In this document: positions 10,023 to 27,179 of the stretch, piece after piece
How the letters are laid out: every line of letters begins with the position of its first letter
How positions within the stretch are numbered: the stretch's first letter is position 1
NCBI GenBank assembly: GCA_012729785.1
Contig: JAAYCL010000036.1
Location: 59,174-123,173, forward strand
DNA from: Chlamydiota bacterium
Lineage (GTDB): Bacteria; Auribacterota; Tritonobacteria; UBA1439
Reading direction: 5' to 3'
DNA: 64,000 bases
The notes under the pieces: model-generated
What the model saw: only the letters and a program-made list of their open reading frames with translations
What the model was told of the DNA's origin: nothing
The model's database searches: none
Made by a program: the position numbers and the translations under genes

Positions 10023-10033
10023 CGGGGGCATCG

Positions 10034-10042
10034 TGGTATACT
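10034..10042 (+). promoter_or_regulatory. Putative extended -10 element TGgTATACT upstream of rfbC
   Basis: TGn plus TATACT at 10034-10042, 38 nt upstream of the rfbC ATG, followed by an AAAGGAG RBS. Confidence 0.3.
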
Positions 10043-10079
10043 CGTCCGGTGGCGCCGAAAATCGAAAGGAGTCGGAACG

Positions 10080-10535
10080 ATGATCGAGGGAGTGAAGGTC
10101 AAGGAACTCACGCCCCACGCGGACGAGCGGGGGTACCTCCAGGAGATTGTGCGGAAAGACGAAAAGATCTTCGAGGAGTTCGCCCAGCTGTACGTGTCCC
10201 TGAACTACCCCGGCGTCGTGCGCGCCTGGCACTACCACCGGAAGCAGAACGACTTCATGACCGTCGTCAAGGGTATGGCGAAGATCGTCCTCTACGACGC
10301 GAGGGAGGGGTCGCCGACGCGCGGGGAGATCGACGAGTTCTTCGTGGGGGAGCACCACCGGATACTCATCCGCATCCCCGCGATGGTGATGCACGGCTAC
10401 AAGACGATCGGCGTTGAGCCGTGCCTGCTGATCAATCTGCCCACCCGCTGCTACGATCCGAACGACCCGGACGAGTTCAGGGTGCCCCCGCACGACAACG
10501 ACATCCCGTACGACTGGGCGATCAAGGAGCGCTGA
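10080..10535 (+). CDS. rfbC: dTDP-4-dehydrorhamnose 3,5-epimerase (short cupin form)
   Basis: Cupin RmlC-like motifs (DERGYLQE, WHYHRKQNDFMTVVKG, IPAMVMHGY). It is the first gene of a rfbC-A-B-D array. Confidence 0.8.
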   Translation: MIEGVKVKELTPHADERGYLQEIVRKDEKIFEEFAQLYVSLNYPGVVRAWHYHRKQNDFMTVVKGMAKIVLYDAREGSPTRGEIDEFFVGEHHRILIRIPAMVMHGYKTIGVEPCLLINLPTRCYDPNDPDEFRVPPHDNDIPYDWAIKER

Positions 10536-10579
10536 GCTCCCCTGTGCGGCCGCCGCCGTAAGGGGCGAAAGGAGGAGAG

Positions 10580-11317
10580 ATGAAGGGCGTCATCCTCGCG
10601 GGGGGTCTCGGCACGCGGCTGCACCCGCTCACCAAGATCACCAACAAGCATCTGCTCCCGATCTACGACAAGCCGATGATCTACTACCCGATACAGACGC
10701 TCGTCAACGCGGGGGTCGAGGACATCCTGGTGGTGACCGGCGGCAACAACGCCGGCGACTTCCTGCGTCTCCTCGGGAACGGGGCCGAGTTCGGCCTGAA
10801 GCGGCTCCAGTACGCCTACCAGGAGAAGGAGGGCGGCATCGCCCAGGCGCTCTCCCTCGCGGAGCATTTCGCGGAGGGGGAGAAGCTGGTGGTGATGCTG
10901 GGGGACAACATCATCGAGGGGAACATCGTCGAAACGGTCGAGGAGTTCTCCCGCCAGGAGAAGGGGGCGAAGATCCTCCTCAAGGAGGTGGACAGCCCGC
11001 AGGAGTACGGGGTCGCCGAGATACGGGACGGCAAGATCGTGGCCATCGTGGAGAAGCCCGCGAAGCCGGTCAGCAACTACGCCGTCATCGGCATCTACCT
11101 CTATGACGCGGCGGTCTTCGACATCGTCAGGACCCTCGAGCCCTCGGGGAGGGGGGAGCTCGAGATCACGGACGTCAACAACGCCTACATCGCCGCGGGG
11201 ACGATGACCTATGGCATCCTGGACGGATGGTGGGCGGACGCGGGGGCCTCGATCGACCGCCTGCTGAAGGTCAATGCGCTGGTCTACGAGAGCGGCGCCA
11301 ACAAGATGGCCCTGTAG
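10580..11317 (+). CDS. rfbA: Glucose-1-phosphate thymidylyltransferase
   Basis: MKGVILAGGLGTRLHPLTKITNKHLLPIYDKPMIYYPI is the canonical RmlA N-terminus. Confidence 0.9.
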   Translation: MKGVILAGGLGTRLHPLTKITNKHLLPIYDKPMIYYPIQTLVNAGVEDILVVTGGNNAGDFLRLLGNGAEFGLKRLQYAYQEKEGGIAQALSLAEHFAEGEKLVVMLGDNIIEGNIVETVEEFSRQEKGAKILLKEVDSPQEYGVAEIRDGKIVAIVEKPAKPVSNYAVIGIYLYDAAVFDIVRTLEPSGRGELEITDVNNAYIAAGTMTYGILDGWWADAGASIDRLLKVNALVYESGANKMAL

Positions 11318-11337
11318 GGCCCCGGGAGGGGATGACG

Positions 11338-12348
11338 ATGAGGATGCTGGTCACGGGGGGGGCGGGGTTCATCGGCTCCAACTTCATCCGCCGCTGCCTC
11401 CGCCGCGGCACCGCGACGGAGCTGGTGAACCTGGACAAGCTCACCTACGCGGGGAACCTCGACAACCTGAAGGAGGTCGCGCGGGACCCGCGCTACCGGT
11501 TCGTCAGGGGCGATATCGCCGACGCGGAACTGGTGAACCGCCTCGCGGCGGAGCGGTTCGACGCGATCGTCAACTTCGCCGCGGAGACGCACGTGGACCG
11601 CTCGATCGGGGACGCGGGCGATTTCATCCGCACGGACGTCTACGGGACGTTCGTGCTGCTGGAGGCGGCGCGCAAACACAGGATCGGGAGGTTCATCCAG
11701 ATCTCGACCGACGAGGTCTACGGGAGCATCGAGAAGGGGTCGTTCAGGGAGACGGACCCGCTCATGCCCCGCAACCCGTACGCCGCGAGCAAGGCCGGGG
11801 CCGACCGGCTCGCCTACTCGTACTGGGCGACGTACCGCCTCCCGGTGGTCATCACCCGGGCCTCCAACAACTTCGGCCCGTACCAGTACCCCGAGAAGGT
11901 GATCCCGCTCTTCGTCACGAACGCCCTGGACGACATCCCGCTCCCCCTCTACGGCGACGGGATGAACGTCCGGGACTGGCTCTTCGTCGATGACCATTGC
12001 GCCGCGATCGAGTTCCTCCTCGAGAAGGGGGCGGACGGCGAGGTCTACAACATCGGGGGCGGCAACGAGCTCCCCAACGTCGAGCTCACCCGCATCATCC
12101 TCGACTGCCTGGGGAAACCGGCCTCCCTGATCACAAGGGTCAAGGACCGGCAGGGGCACGACCGGCGCTACTCCCTCGACTGCGGCAAGCTGCGGGCGCT
12201 GGGCTGGGCGCCGCGCGCGGGGTTCGCCGAGGCGATCCGCGAGACGGTCGACTGGTACGCGAAGAACGACTGGTGGTGGCGCCCCCTCAAGAGCGGCGAG
12301 TACCTGGACTACTACCGGAGACAGTACGTCGACCGCGAACGATCGTAA
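11338..12348 (+). CDS. rfbB: dTDP-glucose 4,6-dehydratase
   Basis: Starts at LVTGGAGFIGSNF, with a YAASKA active-site Tyr/Lys. Extended short-chain dehydrogenase fold. Alternative ATG starts at 11332 and 11344. Confidence 0.9.
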   Translation: MRMLVTGGAGFIGSNFIRRCLRRGTATELVNLDKLTYAGNLDNLKEVARDPRYRFVRGDIADAELVNRLAAERFDAIVNFAAETHVDRSIGDAGDFIRTDVYGTFVLLEAARKHRIGRFIQISTDEVYGSIEKGSFRETDPLMPRNPYAASKAGADRLAYSYWATYRLPVVITRASNNFGPYQYPEKVIPLFVTNALDDIPLPLYGDGMNVRDWLFVDDHCAAIEFLLEKGADGEVYNIGGGNELPNVELTRIILDCLGKPASLITRVKDRQGHDRRYSLDCGKLRALGWAPRAGFAEAIRETVDWYAKNDWWWRPLKSGEYLDYYRRQYVDRERS

Positions 12349-13264: not shown

Positions 13265-13268
13265 GGCG

Positions 13269-14095: not shown

Positions 14096-14269
14096 ATGAT
14101 CGACAAGGAGCTGCTGGAGATACTCGCGTGCCCGGCCTGCAAGGCGGAGGTGAAGCTCGAAGGGGAGAAGATCGTCTGCCTCGGCTGCGGGCGCCGCTAC
14201 CCGATCCGCGACGGCATCCCGATCATGCTGGTCGACGAGGCGGAGACGCCCGGCGCCAAGGAGGGATGA
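14096..14269 (+). CDS. Trm112-family small protein (UPF0434/YcaR-like), 57 aa
   Basis: The translation is MIDKELLEILACPACKAEVKLEGEKIVCLGCGRRYPIRDGIPIMLVDEAETPGAKEG. It has a CPxC...CxxC zinc-ribbon and the conserved P(I/V)xDGIP(I/V)ML motif. An [14 protein letters not shown] lies upstream. The ORF track does not list it because it is under 60 aa; instead an overlapping wrong-frame ORF (14023..14565) is listed. Confidence 0.7.
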   Translation: MIDKELLEILACPACKAEVKLEGEKIVCLGCGRRYPIRDGIPIMLVDEAETPGAKEG

Positions 14270-14270
14270 G

Positions 14271-15473
14271 GTGCCTGCGGCGCCGACTGCCCGGCCCGCG
14301 GGCGAAGCCGCGCCCGTGCTGTTCGTCACCATCAACATGGAGCTCGGCGGGACCGAGCGCCAGCTCTGCGAACTGGCGGCCGGGCTCGATCGCCGGCGCT
14401 TCGCCCCGCGCGTATGCTGCCTGCGCGGCGGGGGGCCGCTCGCCGATACCCTCGCCGCCGCGGGCGTTCCGCTCACCGTCCTCGCCCCGCGCGCCCGTGG
14501 CCGCGCCGGACGGGCGCGGCCGTGGCGGGTCTTTCTGCCGCAGATCCTCGCCCTCTCGAACCTGATGCGGCGGGAACGCATCGCGATCGTCCACGGGCTG
14601 CTGCCGGCCGCCCTGGTGACGGCGGGGTTCGCCGCCCGCCGGGCGGGGGTGCCGGTCCTCGTGACGGGGAGAAGGGGGCTCGGGCGCTACAAGGAGGGGC
14701 GGCCCCTCCTCCGGTTTCTGGAGAATCTGGTGAATCGCTGGGCCGACGCGATCGTCCCCAACTCCGAGGCGGTCCTCCGGGACGTCCTCGCCCGGGAGCG
14801 GATCGTTCCGGAACGGCTCCGCGTCATCTACAACGGGGTGCGGATCCCCTCCTCCCCGCCGCGAGTCGGGCGGCGGGAGATCGCCGGGCGGGAGATCCGG
14901 GGGCCGGTGGTCTGCCTCGTCGCGAATTTCTTTCCCTACAAGGGGCACCTGGATTTTCTCGAGGCGGCGCGGATCGTGCTGGGCTCCTTCCCCGAGACCC
15001 GGTTCGTGCTCGTGGGCGACGGGAGGTTGCGGCAGGCGGTCGAGCGCAGGGCGGCCGAGCCGGACCTCCGCGGGCGCGTCGTTCTCCTCGGTTCCCGCAT
15101 GGACAGCGGGGAGATCATGGCCTCTGCGGACGTGCTCGCGCTCGCCTCGCACCAGGAGGGGTTTCCGAACGTCGTCCTCGAGGCGATGGCGCGGGCGAAA
15201 CCGGTGGTCGCGACGCGGGTCGGGGGGGTCCCCGAGGCGGTGGAGGAGGGCGGCACCGGCCTCCTCGTCCCCCCCCGCGACCCGCCCGCGATGGCCGCCG
15301 CGCTCGTCCGGCTGATCGGGAACCCGGAGGAGGCCGCCGGGATGGGGCGGCGGGGGCTCGCCCGCGCGCGGACGCTGTTCAGCGTCGAGCGGATGGTCCT
15401 GGCGCACGAGGAACTGTACGGGGAGCTGCTGAAGCGGAAGACGTCGGACGGAAGTCGTCTCCCGAGAAACTAG
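14271..15473 (+). CDS. Glycosyltransferase family 4 (GT-B fold)
   Basis: The C-terminal domain carries the GT4 EX7E signature (HQEGFPNVVLEAMARAKPVVATRVGGVPE). GTG start 1 nt after the Trm112-like stop. Confidence 0.8.
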   Translation: MPAAPTARPAGEAAPVLFVTINMELGGTERQLCELAAGLDRRRFAPRVCCLRGGGPLADTLAAAGVPLTVLAPRARGRAGRARPWRVFLPQILALSNLMRRERIAIVHGLLPAALVTAGFAARRAGVPVLVTGRRGLGRYKEGRPLLRFLENLVNRWADAIVPNSEAVLRDVLARERIVPERLRVIYNGVRIPSSPPRVGRREIAGREIRGPVVCLVANFFPYKGHLDFLEAARIVLGSFPETRFVLVGDGRLRQAVERRAAEPDLRGRVVLLGSRMDSGEIMASADVLALASHQEGFPNVVLEAMARAKPVVATRVGGVPEAVEEGGTGLLVPPRDPPAMAAALVRLIGNPEEAAGMGRRGLARARTLFSVERMVLAHEELYGELLKRKTSDGSRLPRN

Positions 15474-15493
15474 AAACGAGGAACGGTATTCAC

Positions 15494-17383
15494 GTGTGCG
15501 GAATCTGCGGGATCGTCTACGGCGACCGGGAGAGGGCGGTCGATCGCGCCACGCTCGAGGCGATGACGCGCCTGATGGCGCACCGCGGCCCCGACGGCGA
15601 GGGCTTTCACCTCGACGGCCCGGTGGGCCTCGGGCACCGGCGCCTGAGCGTCATCGACGTCGAGGGCGGCGTCCAGCCGATGACGAACGAGGACGGCACG
15701 CTCTGGCTGGTCTACAACGGGGAGATCTACAACTTCCGGGAGCTCACCGAGGAACTGAAGGCCGGCGGGCACCGCTTCCGCACCCGCTGCGACACGGAGG
15801 TGATCCTCCATCTGTACGAGGAGCATGGCACCGGGTGCCTGGAGCGGCTCCGCGGGATGTTCTCGTTCGCCCTCTGGGACGGGCGTCGTCGTCGTCTCTT
15901 CTGCGCCCGGGACCGTCTCGGCGTCAAGCCGTTCTTCTATCGGCACGCGGGGAGCGACTTCATCTTCGCCTCGGGCCCCGCGCCGATCCTCAGCCATCCC
16001 GGCGTCGAGCGCCGCGTAGACCTCGAGGCGCTCGACCTCTATTTGACCTACCAGTACGTCCCCGCGCCGTTCTCGATCTTCGCCCGGATGCACAAGCTCC
16101 CCCCCGCGCATTTCCTCGTGCTCGAGAACGGCAACGTCACGGTCGAGCGGTACTGGGAGGCGAACCCGGAGCGCCCCCTCGAGATCGGCTACGACGAGGC
16201 GCGGGCGCGCCTGCGTGATCTCCTCGTCGAGGCGACCCGCCTCCGGCTCGTCAGCGACGTGCCGCTGGGGGCGTTTCTGAGCGGGGGGATCGACTCGAGC
16301 ATCGTGGTCGCCCTGATGAGCCGGGAGGGGGGCGCGCAGGTCAAGACCTTCTCGATCGGCTTCGACGACGAGCGCTACAACGAGCTCCCCTACGCCCGGA
16401 TGGTCGCGAAGCGGTACGGCACCGACCACCATGAGCTCATCGTGAAACCCGACGCCGTCGGCCTCCTCCCGAAGCTTGTCCGGCACTACGGCGAGCCGTT
16501 CGCGGACTCCTCCGCGCTCCCGACCTACCACGTCGCCAGGATGAGCCGCCGCGAGGTCACGGTGGCCTTGAACGGCGACGCGGGCGACGAGCTGTTCGCC
16601 GGCTACGACCGATACCGCGCCTTCTCCCTCGCCGGCCGGATGGGGGCCATACCGGGCGCCGCGCCGCTCGGACGGACGCTCGCCCGGTTTCTCGCCGGCG
16701 CACCGCGCGACAGCCTCCGGGACCGCGCGCGGCGGTTCGCCGAGTCGTTCGGCCTCCCGGGGCCCGCCCGGTACCTGCGCTATGTGGCCTACTTCGGAGA
16801 GGAGGAGAAGGCCCGACTCTACGCGCCGCGGTTCCGGGAGGCGGCGGGCGCCTTCGACGCCCCCGGCCAGATTCGCCGTATCTACGAGGCGTGCCGGATA
16901 CACGACGAGACCGCCCGGCTCCTCTTCACCGACCTGTGCAGCTACCTCCCCGGCGATCTCCTGGTGAAGGTGGACATCGCCACGATGGCGGTCTCCCTCG
17001 AGGCCCGGTCCCCGTTCCTCGACCATCGCCTCGTCGAATTCGCCGCCGCGCTCCCCACGCGGTGGAAAATCTCGGGCGGGGAGGGGAAGCGGATCCTCCG
17101 TGACGCCTGCGCGGATCTGCTGCCTGGGGAGATCCTCCGCCGCGGGAAGCAGGGATTCGGCGTTCCGATCAGCCGCTGGTTCCGCGGCGAGCTCGGCGAA
17201 TATCTCCGGGAGATTCTGCTCGACCCCTCCAGCCTCGGGCGCGGCTACTTCGATCCGGCCCGCGTGCGGGAGCTTGTCGACCATCACCAGCGCGGGTTCC
17301 GCGACCACAGCTACCGGCTCTGGGCCCTCCTGGCGCTCGAGCTGTGGCACCGCGAGTTCATCGACGGCGGGGGGGGCGCGTGA
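15494..17383 (+). CDS. asnB: Asparagine synthetase (glutamine-hydrolysing) family amidotransferase, AsnB/WbpS-like
   Basis: The N-terminus is (M)CGIVG. The Ntn glutaminase domain is followed by a PP-loop (SGGIDSS). 629 aa. GTG start after an AGGA RBS. Confidence 0.9.
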   Translation: MCGICGIVYGDRERAVDRATLEAMTRLMAHRGPDGEGFHLDGPVGLGHRRLSVIDVEGGVQPMTNEDGTLWLVYNGEIYNFRELTEELKAGGHRFRTRCDTEVILHLYEEHGTGCLERLRGMFSFALWDGRRRRLFCARDRLGVKPFFYRHAGSDFIFASGPAPILSHPGVERRVDLEALDLYLTYQYVPAPFSIFARMHKLPPAHFLVLENGNVTVERYWEANPERPLEIGYDEARARLRDLLVEATRLRLVSDVPLGAFLSGGIDSSIVVALMSREGGAQVKTFSIGFDDERYNELPYARMVAKRYGTDHHELIVKPDAVGLLPKLVRHYGEPFADSSALPTYHVARMSRREVTVALNGDAGDELFAGYDRYRAFSLAGRMGAIPGAAPLGRTLARFLAGAPRDSLRDRARRFAESFGLPGPARYLRYVAYFGEEEKARLYAPRFREAAGAFDAPGQIRRIYEACRIHDETARLLFTDLCSYLPGDLLVKVDIATMAVSLEARSPFLDHRLVEFAAALPTRWKISGGEGKRILRDACADLLPGEILRRGKQGFGVPISRWFRGELGEYLREILLDPSSLGRGYFDPARVRELVDHHQRGFRDHSYRLWALLALELWHREFIDGGGGA

Positions 17384-18558
17384 ACCCCCGCCCGGCCAGG
17401 ATCCTCCGGATCATCACCCGTTTGAATATCGGGGGCCCGTCGATCAACGCCATCGCACTGAGCGCCGGCCTCCCCCGGGACAGGTTCGAGACCGTGCTCG
17501 TCTGCGGCCGGCCGGGCGTGGCGGAGGGGAACCTGGCGTCCCGGGCGCGGGAGCGCGGGATACGGCTGATCGAGATCCGCTCCCTGCGGCGCGATCCCTC
17601 GCCCGTGGCGGACGCCGCCGCGCTGGCCCGGCTCATCGAGATCGTCCGCCGCGAGAGGCCCGACATCGTCCACACGCATCTCGCCAAGGCCGGCGCGCTC
17701 GGCCGCATTGCCGCGAAAACCGTCCCGGGCATCCGGACCGTCCACACCTTCCACGGGCACGTCTTCAGCGGCTACTTCACCCCCGCACGCACGCGAATCT
17801 TCCTCGCCGTCGAACGGCTGCTGGCGCGTGGCACGGACAAGATCATCGCCCTCTCGGAGGCCCAGCGGGCCGAGCTCGTCGGCGCCTGCCGCATCGGCCG
17901 ACCCGGGCAGTACGCGGTCATTCCGCTGGGGCTCGACCTCGAACGGTTCGCGGCGAGCCGGGCCCTCCGGGGCTCCCTGCGCAGGGAGCTCGGCCTGGAG
18001 CCGGAGGCGTCCGTGATCACGCTGGCGGGGCGCCTTGCGCCGGTCAAGGACCACCGTCTCTTTCTCGCCGCGGCGCGCCTCGTCCTCGCGGCGCGGCCGC
18101 GGGCGGTCTTCCTCGTCGTCGGCGACGGCGAGGAGCGGCCGTCGCTCGAGCGGGAGGCGCGCACGAGCGGGCTCGCGGACGCGGTGCGGTTCACCGGCTG
18201 GCGCGACGACCTCGACCGCGTCTACGCGGACTCCGACCTGGTGGTCCTCACCTCGCGGAACGAGGGGACGCCGGTCAGCCTGATCGAGGCGTCCGCGGCG
18301 GGGCGCCCGATCGTCGCGACGGCGGTCGGCGGCGTCGGGGACGTCGTGCGGGACGGCGGGAGCGGCCTCCTCGCCGCCGGCCGCGACCCGGCGGAGATCG
18401 CCGCCCTGATCCTGCGGCTCCTCGACGACCCCGCGCGCGCGGCCGCGATGGGGGAGGAGGGGAGGAGGTTCGTCCTCGAGCGGTTCACGAGCGCGAGGCT
18501 CGTCCGCGACGTTGGGGAGCTGTACGGGCGCCTCCTGGAGGAAGGGGGTGCGGGGTGA
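17380..18558 (+). CDS. Glycosyltransferase family 4 (GT-B fold)
   Basis: GTGA overlap with the asnB stop. The EX7E region is SRNEGTPVSLIEASAAGRPIVATAVGGVGDVV. Confidence 0.8.
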   Translation: MNPRPARILRIITRLNIGGPSINAIALSAGLPRDRFETVLVCGRPGVAEGNLASRARERGIRLIEIRSLRRDPSPVADAAALARLIEIVRRERPDIVHTHLAKAGALGRIAAKTVPGIRTVHTFHGHVFSGYFTPARTRIFLAVERLLARGTDKIIALSEAQRAELVGACRIGRPGQYAVIPLGLDLERFAASRALRGSLRRELGLEPEASVITLAGRLAPVKDHRLFLAAARLVLAARPRAVFLVVGDGEERPSLEREARTSGLADAVRFTGWRDDLDRVYADSDLVVLTSRNEGTPVSLIEASAAGRPIVATAVGGVGDVVRDGGSGLLAAGRDPAEIAALILRLLDDPARAAAMGEEGRRFVLERFTSARLVRDVGELYGRLLEEGGAG

Positions 18559-19361
18559 GCGAAACGGAGACGGCGTTCGAGTTCGGGCGGAACTGGGAGC
18601 GGTTCGTCGCGCGCGCCCTCGACGACGGGCGGATCGACATCGCGCGCCGGCATATCCTGGAGTTCCTCGAACTGCCGGACCTCCGCGGCCGTTCGTTCAT
18701 CGACGTCGGGTGCGGGAGCGGGCTCTCCTCGCGCGCCGCCCTCGACGCGGGGGCGGCGAGGATCATAAGCTTCGATTGCGATCCCGATTCGGTGCGCGCA
18801 ACCGAACGGGTGCGGGAAATGAGCGGGAACCCGCCGCACTGGGCCGTGGTGCGCGGCTCCGTCCTCGACGACGCGTTCATCGCCTCGCTCGGCCGCGCGG
18901 ATATCGTCTACGCCTGGGGGGTGCTCCACCACACCGGCCGGATGTGGGACGCCGTCGAGCGCGCATCCCGGCTCGTCGCCGACGGCGGGCTGTTCTACCT
19001 CGCGCTCTACACCACGACCCCGCAGTCGACGCACTGGGTACGGGTGAAGAAACGGTATAACGCGGCCTCGCCGGCGCGCAGGCGGCTCATGGAGGCCGCG
19101 TATTTCCTGCGCCACACCTGCGCGTCCAACCTTGTGCGCGGGAAAAGCCCCCTCGCCTTCATCCGACACTACCGGAGGTCGCGCGGGATGTCGTACCTGA
19201 CGGACGTGCGGGACTGGCTGGGGGGGTGGCCGTACGAGGATGCGGAGATCGGGGAGGTGCTGCATTTCTGCAACAGGAAACTCGGCCTCGAGCTGCGCAA
19301 CATCCGGACCGGCGAGGCCAATACCGAGTACCTGTTCAAAGGCTCCATGGCGGAAGGATAG
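18555..19361 (+). CDS. Class I SAM-dependent methyltransferase
   Basis: Motif I FIDVGCGSGLSS. GTGA overlap with the upstream GT4. Confidence 0.7.
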   Translation: MSETETAFEFGRNWERFVARALDDGRIDIARRHILEFLELPDLRGRSFIDVGCGSGLSSRAALDAGAARIISFDCDPDSVRATERVREMSGNPPHWAVVRGSVLDDAFIASLGRADIVYAWGVLHHTGRMWDAVERASRLVADGGLFYLALYTTTPQSTHWVRVKKRYNAASPARRRLMEAAYFLRHTCASNLVRGKSPLAFIRHYRRSRGMSYLTDVRDWLGGWPYEDAEIGEVLHFCNRKLGLELRNIRTGEANTEYLFKGSMAEG

Positions 19362-19368
19362 GATCGAA

Positions 19369-20949
19369 ATGGCGACAGGGGCGGTGCGCGCGTTGTGCCT
19401 GGGGCTGCTGATCGTCTTCGCGACGCTCCCCGCGCTCGTCTGCTACCGAACGCTCCCCGGCCGGGATTCAGGCGGGGCGCTCTACGCGGGGTGGCGGATC
19501 CTCCAGGGGGACGTTCTCTACCGGGACGCGTGGGACCACAAGGCGCCCGCGATCTATTGCATCAACGCGCTCGGCCTCCTCCTCGGCGGGGGCTCGACCT
19601 GGGGCGTCGCGGGCCTCGAGCTGCTCCTCCTCCTCGCGGCGGCGATGCTGGGCTGGTCCGCGCTCCGGGATGCGTTCGGCGCGGCGCCGGCGTTCTTCGC
19701 CACGGTCGCGTGGATCTTCACCCTCTCCCTCGTGCACGACGGCGGAAACCTCCCCGAGGGGTACGCGCTCCCGCTGCAGTTCGCGGCGCTGTATCTTTTC
19801 GCCCGATCAGACCCCGCGGCCGGCTTCTCGGCGAGGGGAATGCTGATCGGCGCGTCGGGCGGCCTCGCCTTCTGCATCAGGCCGAACCTCGCGGGGATCT
19901 GGTGCGCGATCCTCCTCTGCGTCGCGCTGCGCGCGTTTCGACGGGGACGGGTGCGCCCGGGCGCCGCCGCGGCCGTTCTGGCCGGCGGGGCGCTGACGCT
20001 CCTCCCGTTCGCCCTCTGTCTGGCCGCCCGCGGCGCGCTCCCCGACGCGCTGGAGGCGGTCTTCGTCTACAACCGCGCGTACGCGGCCGCGACGATGCGC
20101 GACCGTCTCGCGGCGCTCGCCAGGGGGTGGCGACTGATGCGGGTGTCGGGGCTGTCCCTCACCGCGCTGCTGGGCTGGTGCGGCGGGTGCGTGTTCCTGC
20201 GCGGCGGCGGGGCGGGGGAGGGGACGCGGGGCGCGCTCGTGCAGTGCGCGGTCGTCGCCTTTCCGATCGAACTCGCGGCCGCGTCCGTCTCGGGGCGCGC
20301 GTATCCGCACTACTACATGGCGTGGCTGCCTGTCTTCGCGGTGCTCTCCGGCTTCCTCGCCTACGCCGTGCTCCGCGCCATCCCCCTCCGGTTCGCCGCC
20401 TCGGGCGGGGAGGCGGCCGGCGCGTACCGCGTCCGGGGCCTCGCGCTTTTCGCCCTCCTCGCGGTGATGGCGGGCGGGCCGGTCCATGCGCCGGCGCGGC
20501 GGATCGCCCTGTTTCGTTCCGCGCCGGAGACGGCGGCGAAGAGGACGGCGGTCGACTACCTGCGCACGCACACCGGGCCGGATGAGACGGTGCTCGTCTG
20601 GGGAGCGGAGCCGTCGGTCAATTTCCTCTCGAGGAGGAAATCGCCCTCCAGATATTCGTTCCAGTACCCGCTGTATACGAACGGGTACCGGAACGCGGCG
20701 GCGGCGGCGGAGACGTTCCTGGCCGAGCTCTCCTCCCGCCCCCCGGCGGTCGTCATCGACACCTCCGCCACCAATCTCCTGGTCCCCCCCCTTGACCCGG
20801 CGTCGAGGAGGAGACGGCGCCTGCCGTCCGCCTTCGATCCCCTCCCTCCCGCAATGGGGAATCTGTTCGACCTCCTCGCCGCCCGGTATCGCCGCGTGGA
20901 CGGCACGGGGGTACTGCACTGGGCGGTCTACCGGCAGGCGGGGCGCTGA
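19369..20949 (+). CDS. PMT_2/ArnT-like GT-C membrane glycosyltransferase (putative polyprenyl-phosphate-sugar dependent)
   Basis: Multiple transmembrane helices. The first loop carries YRDAWDHKAPAIY (the DxKPP-like PMT_2 motif). 526 aa. Confidence 0.6.
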   Translation: MATGAVRALCLGLLIVFATLPALVCYRTLPGRDSGGALYAGWRILQGDVLYRDAWDHKAPAIYCINALGLLLGGGSTWGVAGLELLLLLAAAMLGWSALRDAFGAAPAFFATVAWIFTLSLVHDGGNLPEGYALPLQFAALYLFARSDPAAGFSARGMLIGASGGLAFCIRPNLAGIWCAILLCVALRAFRRGRVRPGAAAAVLAGGALTLLPFALCLAARGALPDALEAVFVYNRAYAAATMRDRLAALARGWRLMRVSGLSLTALLGWCGGCVFLRGGGAGEGTRGALVQCAVVAFPIELAAASVSGRAYPHYYMAWLPVFAVLSGFLAYAVLRAIPLRFAASGGEAAGAYRVRGLALFALLAVMAGGPVHAPARRIALFRSAPETAAKRTAVDYLRTHTGPDETVLVWGAEPSVNFLSRRKSPSRYSFQYPLYTNGYRNAAAAAETFLAELSSRPPAVVIDTSATNLLVPPLDPASRRRRRLPSAFDPLPPAMGNLFDLLAARYRRVDGTGVLHWAVYRQAGR

Positions 20950-21025
20950 AGCGTTCCGCGTCGCCCCTCCGGCGCGCGCGATCGGTATTTACACGGGGCG
21001 CTTCGGCCGTTACACTGGTGCCGCG

Positions 21026-22138
21026 ATGTGGGCCGCCGTCTACCTTTACCTGTTCGTCTCCGCGCTCTTTTTGAGCCTGCTCCTCACGCCGCTCGCGCGG
21101 CGCGCGGCGCTCCGGGCCGGGATGGTGGACGTCCCCGGCGCGAGGAAGGCGCACCGCAGGCCGACGCCCCTCCTCGGCGGCCTCGCGATCTTCGCCGCCG
21201 TCGCCCTCGTCATCCTCCTCAACGCCGCCCTCGCCTTTCTCGCCTCCCGCGGCGGCCCGCTCGCGGCGCGGGTCCCCGCCGGCCTCTCGCCGTACCTCGC
21301 GGGCGCCCTCTCGGCCTTCCCGAGGCTGGCGGCGATCCTCCTCGGCGGACTCATCGTCCTCCTGCTCGGCATCCGCGACGACGCGGTCGACCTCCCGCCC
21401 GGCCGCAAGCTTCTCGGGCAGCTGTTCGTGGCGGTCTCGATGGCCGCCCTCGGCGTGCGTATCACCCTCTTCATCCCGAGCGCTTTCGTCGGGGCGGTCG
21501 TCACGGTCGCCTGGATCGTAGTCGTCGTCAACTCGTTCAACCTGCTCGACAACATGGACGGCCTCTGCGCGGGCGTCGCCCTCATCGCCTCGGCCCTGAT
21601 GGGCGGCATCTCCGCGCTCAACGGCAACTGCTTCATCGCCTCCCTGTTCGCCGTTCTGGCCGGGGCGCTCCTCGGTTTCCTGCGCTACAACTTCCCCCCC
21701 GCCTCGATCTTCATGGGGGACGCGGGGAGCATGTGCATCGGCTACCTGATCGCCGTGCTGAGCGTGATGCAGACCTGGTACCGGCCCGCCGAGGCCGGCC
21801 CGCTCGCCGTGGCGATGCCGCTCGTCATCCTCGCCGTCCCCCTCTACGACACCCTGTCGGTCGTCGGCATCCGTCTCTCGCGCGGGGAGAGCATCTTCCG
21901 GGCCGACCGCCGCCACTTCTCGCACCGCCTCGTCAAGCTCGGGATGAGCGCGCGGGGGGCGGTCCTCTTCGTCTGGCTCGTCTCCCTCTGCACCGGGCTC
22001 TCCGCCTTCTTCCTGCCGCGCGTCGGCTGGAGGGGCGGGGCCGTCGTCTTCGTCCAGGTCGCCATGGTCGTCTCCGTGATCGCCATCCTCGAGTATTTTG
22101 GCGCGGGGAAAAACGGGAACCGGCATGAAGGCGGATAG
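21026..22138 (+). CDS. wecA: Undecaprenyl-phosphate N-acetylhexosamine-1-phosphate transferase, WecA/MraY (PNPT) family
   Basis: NSFNLLDNMDGL and FMGDAGSMCIGY motifs of the polyprenyl-phosphate N-acetylhexosamine-1-phosphate transferase superfamily. About 10 transmembrane helices. Confidence 0.85.
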   Translation: MWAAVYLYLFVSALFLSLLLTPLARRAALRAGMVDVPGARKAHRRPTPLLGGLAIFAAVALVILLNAALAFLASRGGPLAARVPAGLSPYLAGALSAFPRLAAILLGGLIVLLLGIRDDAVDLPPGRKLLGQLFVAVSMAALGVRITLFIPSAFVGAVVTVAWIVVVVNSFNLLDNMDGLCAGVALIASALMGGISALNGNCFIASLFAVLAGALLGFLRYNFPPASIFMGDAGSMCIGYLIAVLSVMQTWYRPAEAGPLAVAMPLVILAVPLYDTLSVVGIRLSRGESIFRADRRHFSHRLVKLGMSARGAVLFVWLVSLCTGLSAFFLPRVGWRGGAVVFVQVAMVVSVIAILEYFGAGKNGNRHEGG

Positions 22139-23153
22139 AACGGCGCCGTATGACGCCTGGCTGCACTGGTACCTGTCCGAGCGGTGCACCCTCAACTGCG
22201 ACTTCTGCAGCTACGTCCCCCCGAGCGGCCTGCCGAAGCCCGTGGCCCCGGTGACGGTGATCGACATACCCGCCCTCCTGCGCACGCTCGAACGCGCCGG
22301 CAGGGTCTTCAAGATAAGCTTCACCGGCGCGGGCGAGCCTTTCCTGGTGCCGAACATCGTGGAGGCGTGCCGACGGCTCACGGAGCGGCACTACGTCGAA
22401 TTCGTCACCAACCTGACCCCCCCCGCGGTCGAGCGATTCGCCTGCACGATCGATCCGGCGCGGGTCACCGTCATCCACGCCTCCCTGCACAGCGCGGCGC
22501 TCGAACAACGCGGCCTGCTGGAGACCTACATCCGCCACTTCCTGCTGCTGAAGGAGAACGGGTTCGCCCTCAGGTGCGCGGAGCTGGCGCATCCGGCGCT
22601 GCTGCGGGGGGTCCCCGCGCTGCGCTCCCGACTCGGGGCGCGGGGGATCGAACTGTCCTTCTTCCCGTTCTTCGGATCGTACCGCGGGAAACGGTACCCG
22701 AACGCCTTCAGCGCCGGGGAGCTGGCGGTGTTCGGCCTCGGCCCCGACGACCTGCGCATCTTCTCCCCCGACGGGCGGTTGTGCAACGCGGGGTACAACG
22801 TCGCCGTGGTCAGGGAGAACGGCGAGATCCGGCCGTGCGACGCGCTCGGGGAGCGGCTTGGGAACATCTACTCGGGCATCCGCTTCAGGAGGGGGCTGCT
22901 GCGCTGCCCGTTCGGCAGGTGCGTCTGCCCGCTGGATGTGTACGACCCGCGCCTGTTCGCCGCGGCGAAGGAGGCGCACTCCTCGGCGCCACTGGGCGCC
23001 CTGCGCGCGTGGGCGGCGGGAAGAGGCGCGGCGATGCGGGACCTGCTCCCCCATGCCGTGAAGCGAGGCGCGCGCCGCGTCGTGCCGGAGCCGGTTCTGG
23101 CGTTCCGGCGCCGCTGGCGGGCGCGGAGGCGAGCGGGGGGCGCGGGTGCATAA
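22125..23153 (+). CDS. Radical SAM domain protein, possibly with a C-terminal auxiliary Cys cluster
   Basis: The N-terminal ERCTLNCDFCSY is the CX3CX2C radical-SAM cluster motif. A C-terminal Cys-rich segment (CNAGYN...RPCDALG...LLRCPFGRCVCPLD) suggests a SPASM/twitch-like second cluster. Its start overlaps the wecA 3' end. Confidence 0.6.
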   Translation: MKADRTAPYDAWLHWYLSERCTLNCDFCSYVPPSGLPKPVAPVTVIDIPALLRTLERAGRVFKISFTGAGEPFLVPNIVEACRRLTERHYVEFVTNLTPPAVERFACTIDPARVTVIHASLHSAALEQRGLLETYIRHFLLLKENGFALRCAELAHPALLRGVPALRSRLGARGIELSFFPFFGSYRGKRYPNAFSAGELAVFGLGPDDLRIFSPDGRLCNAGYNVAVVRENGEIRPCDALGERLGNIYSGIRFRRGLLRCPFGRCVCPLDVYDPRLFAAAKEAHSSAPLGALRAWAAGRGAAMRDLLPHAVKRGARRVVPEPVLAFRRRWRARRRAGGAGA

Positions 23154-25212
23154 TCCCCGTCTCGAGGCGAACCGGTTTCTCGACGCGGCGCGCGTCGCCG
23201 CGGCGCTCCTGCTCGGGGGGCTGCTCGTCGTCCGTCTCCTCTGGACGGGCGTGACCTATCCCGAGAGCGACGCGTTCGTCTCCATCGCGGCCCTCGCGCT
23301 ACTCGCGGCGCTGCTCGCGGCGGTCGGCTGCGCGGGGGGGGAGTGGCGGCTGCGCGCCTCCGCGGACGGGGGCGCCTTCCTCTACCTGCTCGTGCTCGTC
23401 GCCCTCTCCATCGCCGCCCCGCGCCGCTGGCTGGCGCGGGGCGTCCTCCTGCAGGCCGCCGCCTGCACCGCCGCCTACCTCGTCGCCGCCGACGCCGCCG
23501 TCTCCCGCCGCGCGCGCCTCCTCCTCTGCGCCGCCTTCATAACCGGGACGTTGGCCGTCGCCCTCTACGGCCTCTACCAGCATTTTCAAGGATTCGAGGA
23601 GACGCGCCTGGCGTTCGCCGCGGCGGGGGGCGCGCGGGCGGACCAGGACTCCGCGTTCGCGATCCGTCTGCGTTCCGGGGCGGTCTTCTCGACCTTCTTC
23701 TACCCGAACGCGCTCGCGGGGTTTCTCGTCGTGGCGATCCCGTTCGCGGCCTCGATCCCCCTGCTGCGGAGGGAGGATGCGTCGCCGGTCGTATCCGCCG
23801 GCTGCCTCGGCCTCCTCGCCGCGGCGACGGCGGCGTGGGGTTTCCTCCCCGGCCTCCGCGGGAAGCCGCTTCTTTTCGCGGGGCTCTTCCTCGCCGCCTC
23901 CGCCCTCGCCGCGTGCGTGCGCGTTGCGGAGCTGCGGGCGGGAAGGCTTTTGCGCGCCTTCCTCCTGCTTTCCCCGGCGGCCCTGGCCGTGTGGGCCATC
24001 CTCCTCACCGACTCCGAGGGGGCCTGGCTCTCCCTCGCGGCCGCCTGCGCGTTGGGGGCGCTCCTCCTCTCCGGGCGTCTCATCGCCGCCGGGGCGCTGT
24101 TTCTCGCCGTCGCCGTCCTCTTCGCCGCGCTCCTGCTCACGGGGACGCTCCCGGACGGTTTGGCGCGGAGTCTCGACGTGCGCATGGACTACTGGCGCGC
24201 GGCGGCGGCGATCTGGCGGGAGCACCCGCTCGCGGGGCTGGGGCCCGGGACGTTCGCGGGGGCCTATCCCGCCTACAGGCTTCCCGGATCCGAGGAGGGG
24301 CGGATGGCGCACAGCGCCTACCTCGGTCTCGCGGCGGAGACCGGCGCCGCGGGGCTCGCCGCGTTCCTCGCGATGGCGGGGGCGTGGCTCGTCTCCCTGC
24401 ACGCGGGGGCCCGGAAGGGAGAGCCGCTCGCCGCGGCCGCCTTCGTGGCGGTCTGCGCCTTCCTCATGCACAACGCCGGGGATGTGGGCCTTACGGTGCC
24501 GGGGACGACGTTCGCCCTCTGGTACCTCGCCGGTCTCGGGGCCGGCGCGGCGACGCGCCCGGGGGAGCGGAGACGGCTCTCGCGCGCGGCGGGGGTCTCC
24601 CTCGCGGCGCTGCTCCTCGCCGCCGCCGCGGGGGGCGTCGCGCCCCGGGCGCGCGCGGAGATCCGCCGCCTCGCCGCCGAACGTCTCGCCGGCGCGGGGA
24701 GGCGCGCGGAGGCGCTCGCGGAGATGGAGAAGGCGCTCCTGGCGGAGCCCGACAACGCCGACTACTGGCTGCGCAACGCCGCGCTGGAGGCGCACCGGGG
24801 AGGCGACAGGCACGCGCTTCCCTCCTACGCGCGCGCCGCCTCCCTCGGGAGGGGGATCCCGACATACCATCTTCAGCACGCGTTCTGCCTCTGGCGCCTG
24901 TCAAAAGCGGACGCCGATCCCCGACTCGCCGCCGCGGCGATCGCCGAGCTCCAGGAGGCGGTCCGGTGCAACCCGCACGATTTCGACTACCGCCTCCTGC
25001 TGGGGCACTGGCTCGAAATCACCGGACAGGGGGAGGCGTCTCTGATAGAATACCGTCGCGGCCTCGCCCTCGTCGAGACGGCGCGCGCGAAGCCGCACCG
25101 GACGCGCCGCCACGGCCCCGCGGCGATGGAGAGACTGCAGGCGGCAATCATCGCCAAGATCGAGGAGGCGGAGCGGGAGGCGGCGCCGCCTGCCGCGGAG
25201 GGGGAGAGATGA
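23146..25212 (+). CDS. O-antigen ligase/polymerase (Wzy_C) domain membrane protein fused to C-terminal TPR repeats
   Basis: About 12 transmembrane helices. The periplasmic loop [23 protein letters not shown]...[15 protein letters not shown] matches the Wzy_C/O-antigen ligase signature. The C-terminal 200 aa contain TPR-like helices. GTG start overlaps the radical SAM stop. Confidence 0.7.
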
Positions 25213-25661
25213 AGGTGCTGGTGCTGCACGGTCCCAACCTCCAGCTCCTGGGGGCGCGGGAGCCGGAGACGTACGGCGAGACGACCATCGAGGAGATCGA
25301 CGCGCGGCTCAGGGCCGTCGCCGGGGAGGAGGGGCTCGAGATCGAGATCGTCCAGTCGAACCACGAAGGGGAGATCGTCGACCTGATCGGCCGCGCGCCG
25401 GGGCGCTATGACGCGCTCCTCATCAACCCCGCGGCGTACACCCACACGAGCGTGGCGATACGCGACGCGATCGCCTCCGTGCGCATCCCCGCCGTGGAGG
25501 TCCACCTCTCCAATATCCACGCCCGCGAGGAGTTCCGCCGCATCTCGCTCATCGCCCCGGTCGCCGTCGGCATGATCTGCGGCTTCGGCCCCGGCAGCTA
25601 CTACCTCGGCCTTCGGGCCGTCGCCGGGCTGCTCAAGGGGCGCGGGAATGCCGACCGCTGA
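25209..25661 (+). CDS. aroQ: 3-dehydroquinate dehydratase, type II
   Basis: [21 protein letters not shown] and [12 protein letters not shown] motifs. 150 aa. ATGA overlap with the upstream gene. Confidence 0.9.
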
Positions 25662-26733
25662 CCGGCTCGTTCGGCTTCGGGCGCTGATGCGCGCGGAGGG
25701 GGTCGCCTCCCTCCTCGTCACCGACCTCCCCTCCATCCGCCACCTCGCCGGCTTCACGGGGAGCGCCGCGCGGCTCCTCGTCACGCCGCGGCGGGCCCAC
25801 CTCGTCACCGATGGCCGCTACCGAATCCAGGCCGCCCGCGAGGCATTCCGGTGCCGCGTCGCCGTCGCCGCTCCCGGGAAGGCGTTCGAGGCGGTCGCCG
25901 ACGCCCTGCGGCGGGACGGCGTGCGCACACTCTCGTTCGAACCCGACGCCATCACCTACGCCGACTGGCGCGCCCTGGCCCGCGCATGCGGGCGCCGCGT
26001 CCGCCTCGCGCCGGCCCCGCCGCTCGCCGCGCGGCTCCGCGCGGTCAAGGACCGCGCCGAGATCGCGCTCCTCCGGCGGCTCGCCCGGATGGCCGACGCG
26101 GTCCTGGCCGCCTGCCGCCCGCGCCTGAGGCCCGGGATGACGGAAGGCGAGATCGCCGCCCTTCTGGAGCGGGCGTCGCTCGACGCGGGGGCGGAGGAGG
26201 CGGCGTTCCGGCCGATCGTCGCCGCGGGGGCGCACGCGGCGATGCCGCACCACCGCCCGGGGGCCGGGACCGCGCGCCGCGGCGCGCCGCTCCTCATCGA
26301 CTTCGGAACGAGGATGCGCGGGTACAATTCCGACTTGACGCGCACGTTCCATTTCGGTAAAGTCACCGCACGGTATGAGGGGGTCTACCGGACCGTTCTC
26401 GATGCGCAACGCGCTGCCCTGCAGGCAATAAGGCCGGGGGTGCGCGCGGGGGACGTGGACCGGGCGGCGCGCGACGTGATCGCCGCGGCGGGCCACGCCG
26501 CCTGCTTCGGGCACAGCCTCGGGCACGGGATAGGCCTCGAGGTCCACGAGGAGCCGCGCCTGGGGCCCGGGGTCGCCACGAAACTCGAGGCGGGGATGGT
26601 CTTCACCGTCGAGCCGGGGATCTATCTGCCCGGGTGGGGCGGCGTGCGGATCGAGGATATGGCGGCGGTCACCTCGACCGGCTGCGTCGTGCTCACCGGA
26701 TCCGCCAGGGAACTGGGAGACAGCGTGCTATGA
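25648..26733 (+). CDS. pepP: Xaa-Pro aminopeptidase / M24 family peptidase
   Basis: Creatinase N-domain plus an M24 pita-bread metal-site motif ([19 protein letters not shown]). Confidence 0.85.
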
Positions 26734-27164: not shown

Positions 27165-27179
27165 GGCGGAGGACGGGGG

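What the first reader, a model, noticed from the sequence alone, without database searches (positions are those of the whole stretch)
22125..23153. Radical SAM enzyme translationally embedded between WecA and the O-antigen-ligase-like gene
CX3CX2C (CTLNCDFC) sits at residues about 30-37, and a second C-terminal Cys cluster is present. Both gene ends overlap their neighbours. Radical SAM enzymes in surface-glycan loci are rare. Known examples do C-methylation, epimerisation or C-C bond formation on sugars. Its product modification here is unknown.
Basis: partly seen in the sequence, partly recalled or inferred. Interest (0 to 1): 0.65.

Follow-up and report, generated by a model that had tools for sequence, protein, structure and literature searches.

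The report
Uncharacterised two-cluster radical SAM glycan-tailoring gene
A real gene for a radical SAM enzyme from an unstudied family sits as an optional insert between the two core genes of a cell-surface sugar-chain pathway, so it probably alters one sugar by radical chemistry, but which reaction it performs is not known.

Summary
ORF 22125-23153 (+) encodes a 342-aa radical SAM protein (Pfam 37.5 bits, cut-off 29.5). It carries CTLNCDFC, a GGE motif and a C-terminal twitch-type cysteine set (C220-x12-G-x4-C238, C261, C266; each 99-100% conserved in 183 family representatives). This predicts two [4Fe-4S] clusters.

It overlaps the upstream Glycos_transf_4 (WecA-like) gene by 14 nt and the downstream Wzy_C gene by 8 nt. 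Such overlaps are the rule along this gene string, and Wzy_C also overlaps aroQ.

Family members occur fused to GT2, GT8 and GT4 glycosyltransferases and to a GlcNAc 2-epimerase domain. In many loci they sit among glycosyltransferases and other radical SAM genes. In about half of the loci no glycosyltransferase was detected nearby.

Four syntenic relatives lack the gene, with the Glycos_transf_4 and Wzy_C genes directly adjacent. The gene is therefore an accessory insert.

Best reading: a glycan-tailoring radical SAM enzyme. The chemistry is unresolved, and epimerisation is my best guess. Moderate interest.

The parts
22125..23153 (+). Radical SAM gene, 342 aa. An alternative TTG start lies at 22098.
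   Evidence: Pfam PF04055 scores 37.5 bits against a cut-off of 29.5. GC3 is 0.91. The N-terminus matches the family. The AF2 model has pLDDT 89.4.
22185..22208 (+). CX3CX2C motif (C21, C25, C28), the ligands of the SAM-cleaving [4Fe-4S] cluster.
   Evidence: Read directly from the sequence. Each Cys is 99% conserved in 183 representatives.
22332..22340 (+). G70-E71-P72, the 'GGE' SAM-binding motif within GAGEPFLVPN.
   Evidence: Conserved at 97-99%. BlsE has the same G-G-E-P motif.
22782..22928 (+). Twitch-type auxiliary-cluster domain: C220-NAGYN-x-G233-x4-C238 followed by C261-x4-C266-x-C268.
   Evidence: C220, C238, C261 and C266 are 99-100% conserved and C268 is 91%. The model places a beta-hairpin at 226-229/234-236 between the first two Cys. 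This stretch aligns with the twitch regions of BtrN and SkfB.
22977..23150 (+). Arg-rich helical C-terminal tail specific to this clade. Its role is unknown. Docking to the membrane or to a partner protein is only a guess.
   Evidence: Present in P0002 and P0003 and absent from most of the family. Block-mean pLDDT is 55-84 over most of the tail and 43 for the last residues.
21026..22138 (+). Polyprenyl-phosphate HexNAc-1-phosphate transferase family gene (Glycos_transf_4, WecA-like). Its last 14 nt overlap the radical SAM start.
   Evidence: Pfam PF00953 scores 112 bits. It scores 118.5 bits against the WecA model, below the 326 cut-off. The start was located.
23146..25212 (+). Gene for a Wzy_C-domain membrane protein with a long C-terminal region; relatives have TPR repeats there. 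It overlaps the radical SAM stop by 8 nt and the aroQ start by 4 nt.
   Evidence: Pfam PF04932 scores 63.3 bits. Homologues carry TPR domains. The start is fixed by N-terminal conservation.
14154..20949 (+). Upstream glycan genes on the same strand: GT4 (in 14154-15473), AsnB-type amidotransferase (15494-17383), GT4 (17344-18558), class I methyltransferase (18555-19361) and a PMT_2-like membrane protein (19369-20949; Pfam score below the gathering cut-off).
   Evidence: Pfam and NCBIfam scans.
10023..12348 (+). dTDP-sugar genes at the head of the locus: RmlC-like 3,5-epimerase and RmlB-like 4,6-dehydratase.
   Evidence: Pfam dTDP_sugar_isom and GDP_Man_Dehyd/Epimerase. L068 has a similar gene order.

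Best explanation
The gene encodes a soluble radical SAM enzyme of about 285 core residues with two [4Fe-4S] clusters. One cluster is held by CX3CX2C and cleaves SAM. The other is an auxiliary cluster fully ligated by four Cys in a twitch-type C-terminal domain.

The enzyme belongs to an uncharacterised family and acts here as an accessory glycan-tailoring enzyme. It is co-transcribed with a WecA-like polyprenyl-phosphate HexNAc-1-P transferase (PNPT) gene and a Wzy_C-domain transferase gene.

Inferred mechanism: the reduced N-terminal cluster cleaves SAM, and the 5'-deoxyadenosyl radical abstracts a ring hydrogen from a sugar. The sugar is most likely the HexNAc-type residue that the PNPT places on the lipid carrier, or its nucleotide-sugar precursor. 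The sugar radical is then resolved without a partner enzyme.

My best guess for the outcome is epimerisation, with the hydrogen returned to the opposite face (about 0.3 of this hypothesis). Oxidation to a keto-sugar through the auxiliary cluster, and decarboxylation or dehydration, are nearly as likely.

Shown here: gene reality, motifs, fold class, family conservation, locus synteny, presence/absence at this junction, and fusions to glycosyltransferases. Inferred: cluster content, substrate and reaction.
For: The radical SAM core and two-cluster cysteine pattern are strictly conserved.

Bona fide family members (E 1e-78 to 1e-115, with the family motifs intact) are fused to GT2 (P0062, P0114), GT8 (P0082), GT4 (P0190) and a GlcNAc 2-epimerase domain (P0157).

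Glycosyltransferase genes are denser within 4 kb of family genes (15 of 204 ORFs) than at 4-10 kb (6 of 212). Eleven of 18 loci outside the Ignavibacteria group carry a glycosyltransferase. Two of the closer outgroup homologues with long contigs (P0007/L005, P0009/L008) lie inside glycan-type clusters.

In this lineage the order PNPT, radical SAM, Wzy_C is kept at 87% and 65% protein identity although the upstream genes differ. Four syntenic relatives have PNPT directly next to Wzy_C with no radical SAM gene. This presence/absence pattern is what I would expect of an optional, self-contained tailoring step.
Against: No member of the family has been characterised, and no paper on it was found.

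Seventeen Melioribacteraceae/Ignavibacteria loci show no glycosyltransferase within 10 kb. The 46-47% homologues in L012 and L028 sit beside cofactor-type or unknown genes. The family is therefore not tied exclusively to glycan loci.

Other radical SAM genes are the most frequent neighbour family, ahead of glycosyltransferases.

Gene overlap gives no specific argument for coupling, because Wzy_C overlaps aroQ too.

The fusion proteins are metagenomic gene predictions whose contigs I could not inspect.

The choice of epimerisation rests on parsimony: a single inserted gene with no follow-up enzyme. It also rests on a weak pattern in which the radical-SAM-less loci L065 and L066 carry Epimerase_2 and the window does not.
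Confidence: 0.55

Rival explanations
1. It is a peptide or protein maturase, like most SPASM/twitch radical SAM enzymes (SkfB, anSME, SuiB, EpeE). Its target would be a small precursor peptide or a protein of the envelope pathway, not a sugar.
Against: The radical SAM core starts about 10 residues from the N-terminus, so there is no room for an N-terminal peptide-recognition domain. The overlapping junctions leave no room for a precursor ORF on either side. The fusions are to glycosyltransferases and a sugar epimerase domain. All peptide-maturase models score far below their cut-offs.
Confidence: 0.12
2. It acts on a non-glycan small molecule, lipid or cofactor (for example the polyprenyl carrier, a membrane lipid or a tetrapyrrole-like compound). 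Its place in the glycan locus would then reflect gene order in a compact operon, not shared function.
For: The same gene string continues into aroQ, pepP and accBC with the same kind of overlaps. L028 places a 47% homologue next to a NirDL/AhbAB-like siroheme decarboxylase, a small radical SAM gene, ThiC and NadA. L012 places one next to a BATS-domain radical SAM gene. Seventeen Ignavibacteria-group loci lack glycosyltransferases. There are weak NCBIfam hits to MoaA, NirJ-type and Tes lipid synthase models.
Against: Fusions to three different glycosyltransferase families are hard to explain this way. Glycosyltransferases are enriched close to family genes. The gene is inserted exactly at the PNPT/Wzy_C junction and is kept there at 65% identity although the upstream genes differ. 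No cofactor family model comes near its cut-off.
Confidence: 0.2
3. It is a decaying or non-functional insert.
For: The gene is absent from four syntenic relatives.
Against: All strictly conserved family residues are intact. GC3 is typical of coding sequence in this genome. Orthologues at 99%, 87% and 65% identity keep full length.
Confidence: 0.02

Closest known systems
BlsE (cytosylglucuronate decarboxylase, blasticidin S pathway; PDB 7vob)
   Different: Identity is only 19-20%. BlsE does not appear in the profile sequence search of the PDB at E<=1. BlsE acts on a free nucleoside-sugar in an antibiotic cluster. No uronate-forming dehydrogenase was seen in the part of this locus that was scanned. 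The lead over SkfB and anSME is small.
BtrN (2-deoxy-scyllo-inosamine dehydrogenase) and other twitch-domain sugar enzymes such as SpeY (also NeoN, from my own knowledge)
   Same: BtrN is the best PDB sequence match to the family profile (E 3.3e-7), and the match includes the twitch stretch. Both are compact enzymes with one auxiliary cluster and a CX(n)GX4C hairpin motif. BtrN has a carbohydrate-type substrate.
STM4011 family radical SAM protein (NCBIfam NF038073)
   Same: It is the only curated family model hit by all 39 aligned members (best E 5e-17). The model length is similar (278 positions), and the match covers the C-terminal Cys domain.
   Different: The window protein scores 25.5 bits against a cut-off of 200. 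STM4011 itself has no known function.
SPASM peptide/protein maturases (SkfB, anSME, SuiB, EpeE/YydG)
   Different: The CX2CX5CX3C half-motif for a second auxiliary cluster is absent. There is no N-terminal peptide-binding domain, and no precursor peptide ORF can fit at the overlapping junctions.
NAD-dependent lipid-linked or nucleotide-sugar epimerases (for example Gnu, the GlcNAc-PP-undecaprenol 4-epimerase, and WecB-type Epimerase_2). This is a functional analogy only, from my own knowledge.
   Same: Such an enzyme would fill the same pathway slot, modifying the first HexNAc around the PNPT step. The radical-SAM-less relatives L065 and L066 carry Epimerase_2 next to PNPT.
   Different: The fold, cofactors and mechanism are unrelated. 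The analogy is a hypothesis, not a result.

Membership tests
Radical SAM superfamily (PF04055) | CX3CX2C cluster-binding motif near the N-terminus | tested here: met
   C21-x3-C25-x2-C28 at nt 22185-22208. Each Cys is 99% conserved.
Radical SAM superfamily (PF04055) | Profile score above the Pfam gathering threshold | tested here: met
   37.5 bits against 29.5, E 3.5e-9.
Radical SAM superfamily (PF04055) | Partial (beta/alpha)6 TIM-barrel core with a GGE SAM-binding motif | tested here: met
Radical SAM superfamily (PF04055) | Reductive cleavage of SAM to the 5'-deoxyadenosyl radical | not testable with these tools
   Needs anaerobic biochemistry.
SPASM/twitch subgroup | CX9-15GX4C motif spanning a beta-hairpin after the core | tested here: met
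   C220-x12-G233-x4-C238, conserved at 98-100%. The model has strands at 226-229 and 234-236.
SPASM/twitch subgroup | Further Cys completing one auxiliary [4Fe-4S] cluster (twitch) | tested here: met
   C261 and C266 are 99% conserved, giving four ligands. Actual cluster content was not measured.
SPASM/twitch subgroup | Full seven-Cys SPASM motif (CX2CX5CX3C) for a second auxiliary cluster | tested here: not met
   Only CX4CXC is present. The domain is therefore twitch-type, not full SPASM.
SPASM/twitch subgroup | Curated SPASM domain model (TIGR04085) at its cut-off | tested here: not met
   TIGR04085 scores 14.4 bits against 27. Pfam SPASM (PF13186) did not appear for the window protein in the scan at E<=0.01.
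BlsE-type decarboxylase | Sequence-level relatedness to BlsE | tested here: not met
   Not found in the profile search of PDB sequences at E<=1. Structural alignment gives 19-20% identity.
BlsE-type decarboxylase | A hexuronate substrate or uronate-forming genes in the locus | tested here: inconclusive
   No sugar dehydrogenase was found in the scanned part of the locus. An AsnB-type amidotransferase could hint at uronates.
BtrN-type twitch dehydrogenase | Family-level sequence match | tested here: inconclusive
   Best PDB sequence hit, but only 32.9 bits, E 3.3e-7, in two short stretches.
STM4011 family (NF038073) | Score at or above the curated cut-off | tested here: not met
   25.5 bits against 200. 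All 39 aligned members hit the model weakly.
MoaA (TIGR02666) and other housekeeping maturases (NirJ, PqqE, anSME, QueE, NrdG) | Score at or above the curated cut-off | tested here: not met
   MoaA scores 24.1 bits against 284. All others score lower.
WecA (upstream neighbour) | Equivalog model TIGR02380 at its cut-off | tested here: not met
   118.5 bits against 326. The Pfam Glycos_transf_4 domain is met at 112 bits.
O-antigen ligase / Wzy_C (downstream neighbour) | Pfam Wzy_C domain | tested here: met
   63.3 bits against 31.7. These tools cannot decide whether it is a ligase, a polymerase or an O-oligosaccharyltransferase.

The most novel reading that the evidence does not exclude
The family would be a previously unrecognised class of radical SAM enzymes that remodel sugars during assembly of cell-surface glycans in anaerobic and uncultured bacteria and archaea. 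The window enzyme would act on the polyprenyl-diphosphate-linked HexNAc between the PNPT and Wzy_C steps. That would make it the first radical SAM enzyme shown to work on a lipid-linked glycan intermediate, and an oxygen- and NAD-independent counterpart of lipid-linked sugar epimerases or oxidoreductases.
Probability: 0.15. Interest if true: 0.75.

Novelty: new variant of a known kind. Interest (0 to 1): 0.45.

Why it matters
Radical SAM chemistry on sugars is known mainly from antibiotic pathways (BtrN, NeoN, BlsE, DesII, AprD4). Its role in building cell envelopes is barely explored.

This work defines a compact family that could be purified and assayed. It has about 600 clusters at 50% identity, seven strictly conserved Cys, and recurs in glycan loci from Asgard and DPANN archaea to Omnitrophota and Nitrospira. 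Some members are physically fused to glycosyltransferases.

The window offers a minimal three-gene test bed: the PNPT, radical SAM and Wzy_C genes. Natural radical-SAM-less controls exist in syntenic relatives.

If the reaction is new, it would add a sugar modification to the known repertoire of envelope glycans in anaerobes. If it is an epimerase or dehydrogenase, the finding is a useful annotation, not a surprise.

Tried and rejected
- Curated family assignment: NCBIfam on the protein and on 39 aligned members gave no model near its cut-off. Housekeeping maturases are therefore rejected.
- Literature: five full-text searches found no characterisation of this family, or of radical SAM enzymes in PNPT/Wzy-type loci. 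STM4011 appears only in an expression table.
- Close relatives: the genome-contig scan found none above 47% identity. The metagenome scan found one more close relative, an 87% fragment of 1.9 kb. The presence/absence analysis therefore rests on few loci.
- Co-occurrence of PNPT and Wzy_C with distant family members: phmmer with the window's proteins found neither in 41 loci. This is a low-sensitivity test, especially for Wzy_C.
- Complementarity with Epimerase_2: the window has no Epimerase_2, B12 radical SAM or flippase homologue of those in L065-L067. With only seven loci the pattern is just a hint.
- Active-site mapping of the conserved residues H89, H122, Y191 and C268 was not possible, because model coordinates are not exposed.
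- The first iterative HMM census timed out and was rerun. One Pfam call failed on a frame error.
- Rfam found only a tRNA in the window.
Full report

The window has about 71% G+C, so long spurious ORFs are common. The ORF at 22125-23153 (+) nevertheless shows the coding signature of its neighbours. Its GC3 is 0.91, against 0.90-0.96 for the flanking genes. The two ORFs that overlap it in other frames have GC3 of 0.56 and 0.63.

The sequence CTLNCDFC lies at nt 22185-22208. That is residues 21-28 counted from the ATG at 22125.

Only these two start codons precede the motif. The ATG gives the N-terminus typical of homologues, M-x(6-9)-YDAWLHW. The upstream gene stops at 22136-22138, so an overlap of at least 14 nt is unavoidable.

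The downstream Wzy_C gene must start at GTG 23146. This is the only start codon ahead of an N-terminal stretch that is conserved in two orthologues. The result is an 8-nt overlap.

Pfam confirms the three domain calls:
- Radical_SAM scores 37.5 bits against a gathering score of 29.5.
- Glycos_transf_4 scores 112 bits.
- Wzy_C scores 63 bits.

**2. Anatomy of the protein**

I aligned 39 homologues (A1) and then 183 near-full-length representatives. The strictly conserved residues are:
- C21, C25 and C28, the ligands of the SAM-cleaving cluster.
- G70-E71-P72, the GGE motif.
- H89, N96, H122, P157 and Y191-P192.
- A C-terminal cysteine set: C220 (in the motif CNAGYN), G233, C238, C261 and C266, each at 98-100%. 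C268 is at 91%.

C220-x12-G-x4-C238 is the first half of the SPASM/twitch signature. The second half here is CX4CXC, not the CX2CX5CX3C of full SPASM domains. Seven invariant cysteines therefore predict two [4Fe-4S] clusters, with the auxiliary one fully Cys-ligated.

The AlphaFold2 model is confident (pLDDT 89.4, pTM 0.82). It shows six beta-alpha units, then a beta-hairpin between C220 and C238, and then helices.

Residues from about 285 to 342 form an Arg-rich helical tail. It is shared only with the closest relatives.

**3. What family is it?**

No curated model claims the protein. The best NCBIfam hits are STM4011 (25.5 bits, cut-off 200), MoaA (24.1, cut-off 284) and the SPASM domain (14.4, cut-off 27). 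All 39 aligned members hit the STM4011 model weakly, and none comes close to any cut-off. STM4011 itself is uncharacterised.

An exhaustive profile search of 1.84 billion representative proteins found 602 clusters at E<=1e-30.

The species-representative genomes that carry the family are all metagenome-assembled. They include Omnitrophota, Melioribacteraceae/Ignavibacteria, Nitrospira, Spirochaetota, Verrucomicrobiota, Bryobacterales, Asgard archaea and DPANN archaea.

The protein is therefore a twitch-type member of the SPASM/twitch branch, in a family of its own.

**4. The locus and its relatives**

The window carries one same-strand gene string:
- RmlC-like and RmlB-like genes, then RadC.
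- GT4, an AsnB-type amidotransferase, and a second GT4.
- A class I methyltransferase and a PMT_2-like membrane protein (Pfam score below the gathering cut-off).
- The WecA-like polyprenyl-phosphate HexNAc-1-P transferase (PNPT) gene, the radical SAM gene and the Wzy_C gene.
- aroQ, pepP, accB and accC.

Six of the ten junctions from asnB to accC overlap. These include Wzy_C/aroQ (4 nt) and aroQ/pepP (14 nt). The overlaps flanking the radical SAM gene therefore show co-transcription in a compact operon. They do not show a special link.

The order PNPT, radical SAM, Wzy_C recurs in two relatives:
- L064 (87% identity). The overlaps are 14 nt and 4 nt, and the upstream genes are aromatic amino-acid genes instead of glycan genes.
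- L001 (65% identity). Intergenic gaps of 128 and 145 bp replace the overlaps.

Homologues of the Wzy_C protein at 44-63% identity led to four further syntenic loci, L065 to L068. In these, PNPT is directly adjacent to Wzy_C, followed by pepP-accBC, with aroQ before pepP in three of the four. No radical SAM gene is present, and tblastn confirms its absence.

The genome assembly behind L068 carries a 42% family member on another contig, in a locus with glycosyltransferases (L017).

The radical SAM gene is therefore an accessory insert at the PNPT/Wzy_C junction of a conserved envelope locus. The core pair evidently persists without it.

**5. Family-wide evidence on function**

Thirteen of the 150 best representatives are much longer than the core. 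I scanned all thirteen against Pfam:
- P0062 and P0114 are fused to GT2.
- P0082 is fused to GT8.
- P0190 is fused to a GT4 (Glycos_transf_1) domain.
- P0157 is fused to an N-acylglucosamine 2-epimerase domain.
- P0143 is fused to DUF6625, and P0068 to TPR repeats.
- P0104, P0186 and P0195 are fused to further radical SAM domains.
- The other three (P0105, P0126, P0188) showed no extra Pfam domain.

The fused proteins I checked keep the CX3CX2C motif and most of the other family motifs.

In a Pfam census of the two genes on either side of 34 family genes (117 ORFs), the commonest families were Radical_SAM (20 ORFs, some of them paralogues), GT2 (7), SPASM (5), B12-binding (3), methyltransferases and NAD-epimerases.

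With home-made profiles, which give a lower bound:
- Glycosyltransferases make up 15 of 204 ORFs within 4 kb of a family gene, against 6 of 212 at 4-10 kb.
- Eleven of 18 loci outside the Ignavibacteria group hold a glycosyltransferase.
- None of the 17 Melioribacteraceae/Ignavibacteria loci does.

Two of the closer outgroup homologues with long contigs lie in glycan-type clusters. P0007 sits among many glycosyltransferases and WbqC, PIG-L and formyltransferase genes. P0009 sits with a GT2, a methyltransferase, a B12 radical SAM gene and a carbamoyltransferase.

In contrast, L028 and L012 (46-47% identity) sit beside cofactor-type or unknown genes.

The link to glycan assembly is therefore recurrent, found in several phyla, and backed by gene fusions. 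It is not universal.

**6. How it most likely works**

Shown here: a two-cluster twitch radical SAM architecture and a glycan-pathway position.

Inferred: the N-terminal cluster cleaves SAM. The 5'-deoxyadenosyl radical then removes a hydrogen from a sugar carbon of an intermediate of the PNPT-to-Wzy_C pathway. That intermediate would be either the Und-PP-linked HexNAc or its nucleotide-sugar precursor.

Three outcomes have precedents among related sugar enzymes. Those for NeoN and for the cluster roles come from my own knowledge.
- Epimerisation, as in NeoN.
- Oxidation to a ketone through a fully ligated auxiliary cluster, as in BtrN and SpeY.
- Decarboxylation, as in BlsE.

I favour epimerisation slightly, for three reasons:
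- A single inserted gene with no follow-up aminotransferase or reductase must yield a product that the existing machinery can use directly.
- A near-invariant spare cysteine (C268) lies next to the cluster ligands.
- Two radical-SAM-less relatives carry a UDP-GlcNAc 2-epimerase-type gene beside PNPT, while the window has none.

None of these arguments is strong. Oxidation, and decarboxylation or dehydration, remain nearly as likely.

**7. Rival explanations**

*Peptide or protein maturase (0.12).* The near-equal structural scores of SkfB and anSME suggest it. Against it, there is no N-terminal recognition domain, no room for a precursor ORF at the junctions, and the fusions are to glycosyltransferases.

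*Non-glycan small-molecule, lipid or cofactor enzyme (0.2).* The heterogeneous contexts, and the fact that the operon runs on into housekeeping genes, suggest it. Against it stand the fusions, the local glycosyltransferase enrichment and the conserved insertion point.

*Pseudogene.* All conserved residues are intact, so this is very unlikely.

**8. Comparison with known systems, and novelty**

The protein resembles the twitch-domain sugar-modifying radical SAM enzymes of antibiotic pathways. It fails every family-level membership test for BlsE, BtrN, STM4011, MoaA and full SPASM.

The new elements are the family itself and its setting in envelope-glycan assembly, next to a PNPT and a Wzy_C protein. 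I found no literature on such an enzyme.

Uncharacterised radical SAM families are numerous, and the chemistry here is unknown. I therefore rate this as a new variant of a known kind with moderate interest (0.45). If the enzyme proves to act on a lipid-linked sugar, which I put at about 0.15, the interest would be high.

Noticed in passing
L065 7901-11046; L066 7675-11049; L067 7581-10777; L068 7908-11022: Four syntenic relatives have the PNPT gene directly next to the Wzy_C gene with no radical SAM gene between them. L065 and L066 instead carry an Epimerase_2 gene just upstream of PNPT.
   Followed up: yes
window 17344-27180: Gene overlaps are the rule in this operon: GT4/MT 4 nt, PNPT/rSAM 14 nt, rSAM/Wzy_C 8 nt, Wzy_C/aroQ 4 nt, aroQ/pepP 14 nt, pepP/accB 4 nt. 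Glycan genes and housekeeping genes form one compact string.
   Followed up: yes
L009 930-5257; L010 6738-10990: Asgard archaeal genomes (Hermodarchaeota, Promethearchaeota) carry four tandem paralogues of this radical SAM family in a row. The flanking paralogues are 70-79% identical to one another, and a GT2 gene lies nearby.
   Followed up: partly
P0104 (1260 aa), P0186, P0195: These are multi-radical-SAM fusion proteins. P0104 has four radical SAM domains, and the first belongs to this family. It also matches a UPF0004 (MiaB-type N-terminal) domain and a SPASM domain.
   Followed up: partly
L028 8217-13611: A 47% homologue in an Omnitrophota genome lies between a small radical SAM gene with a NirDL/AhbAB-like siroheme decarboxylase gene on one side and ThiC and NadA on the other. 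This is a cofactor-type context, not a glycan one.
   Followed up: partly
L064 423-4344: In the 87% relative, the genes upstream of PNPT are pheA, a DeoC-like aldolase, an archaeal-type dehydroquinate synthase (PF01959) and tyrA. This suggests the alternative (DKFP-type) route to aromatic amino acids in this lineage.
   Followed up: no
window 13110-13955: A RadC-like JAB-domain gene sits inside the glycan locus, between the dTDP-sugar genes and the first GT4. It is found at the same place in L068.
   Followed up: no
window 22977-23150: The radical SAM protein ends in an Arg-rich helical tail (…RRVVPEPVLAFRRRWRARRR…). The tail is conserved in the 87% and 65% orthologues but absent from most of the family. 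Its role is unknown.
   Followed up: partly
window 8661-10535: An LPG_synthase_TM-family membrane protein gene lies directly upstream of an RmlC-like gene. The RmlC-like protein also gives an odd Polysacc_synt_C hit.
   Followed up: no
window 34408-34478: A single tRNA gene is the only Rfam match in the window.
   Followed up: no
L049 11039-12853: Next to the family gene in a Woesearchaeota genome, a 604-aa ORF matches both the GT2 and the other-radical-SAM home-made profiles. It is a possible GT2-radical SAM fusion from a different radical SAM family.
   Followed up: no
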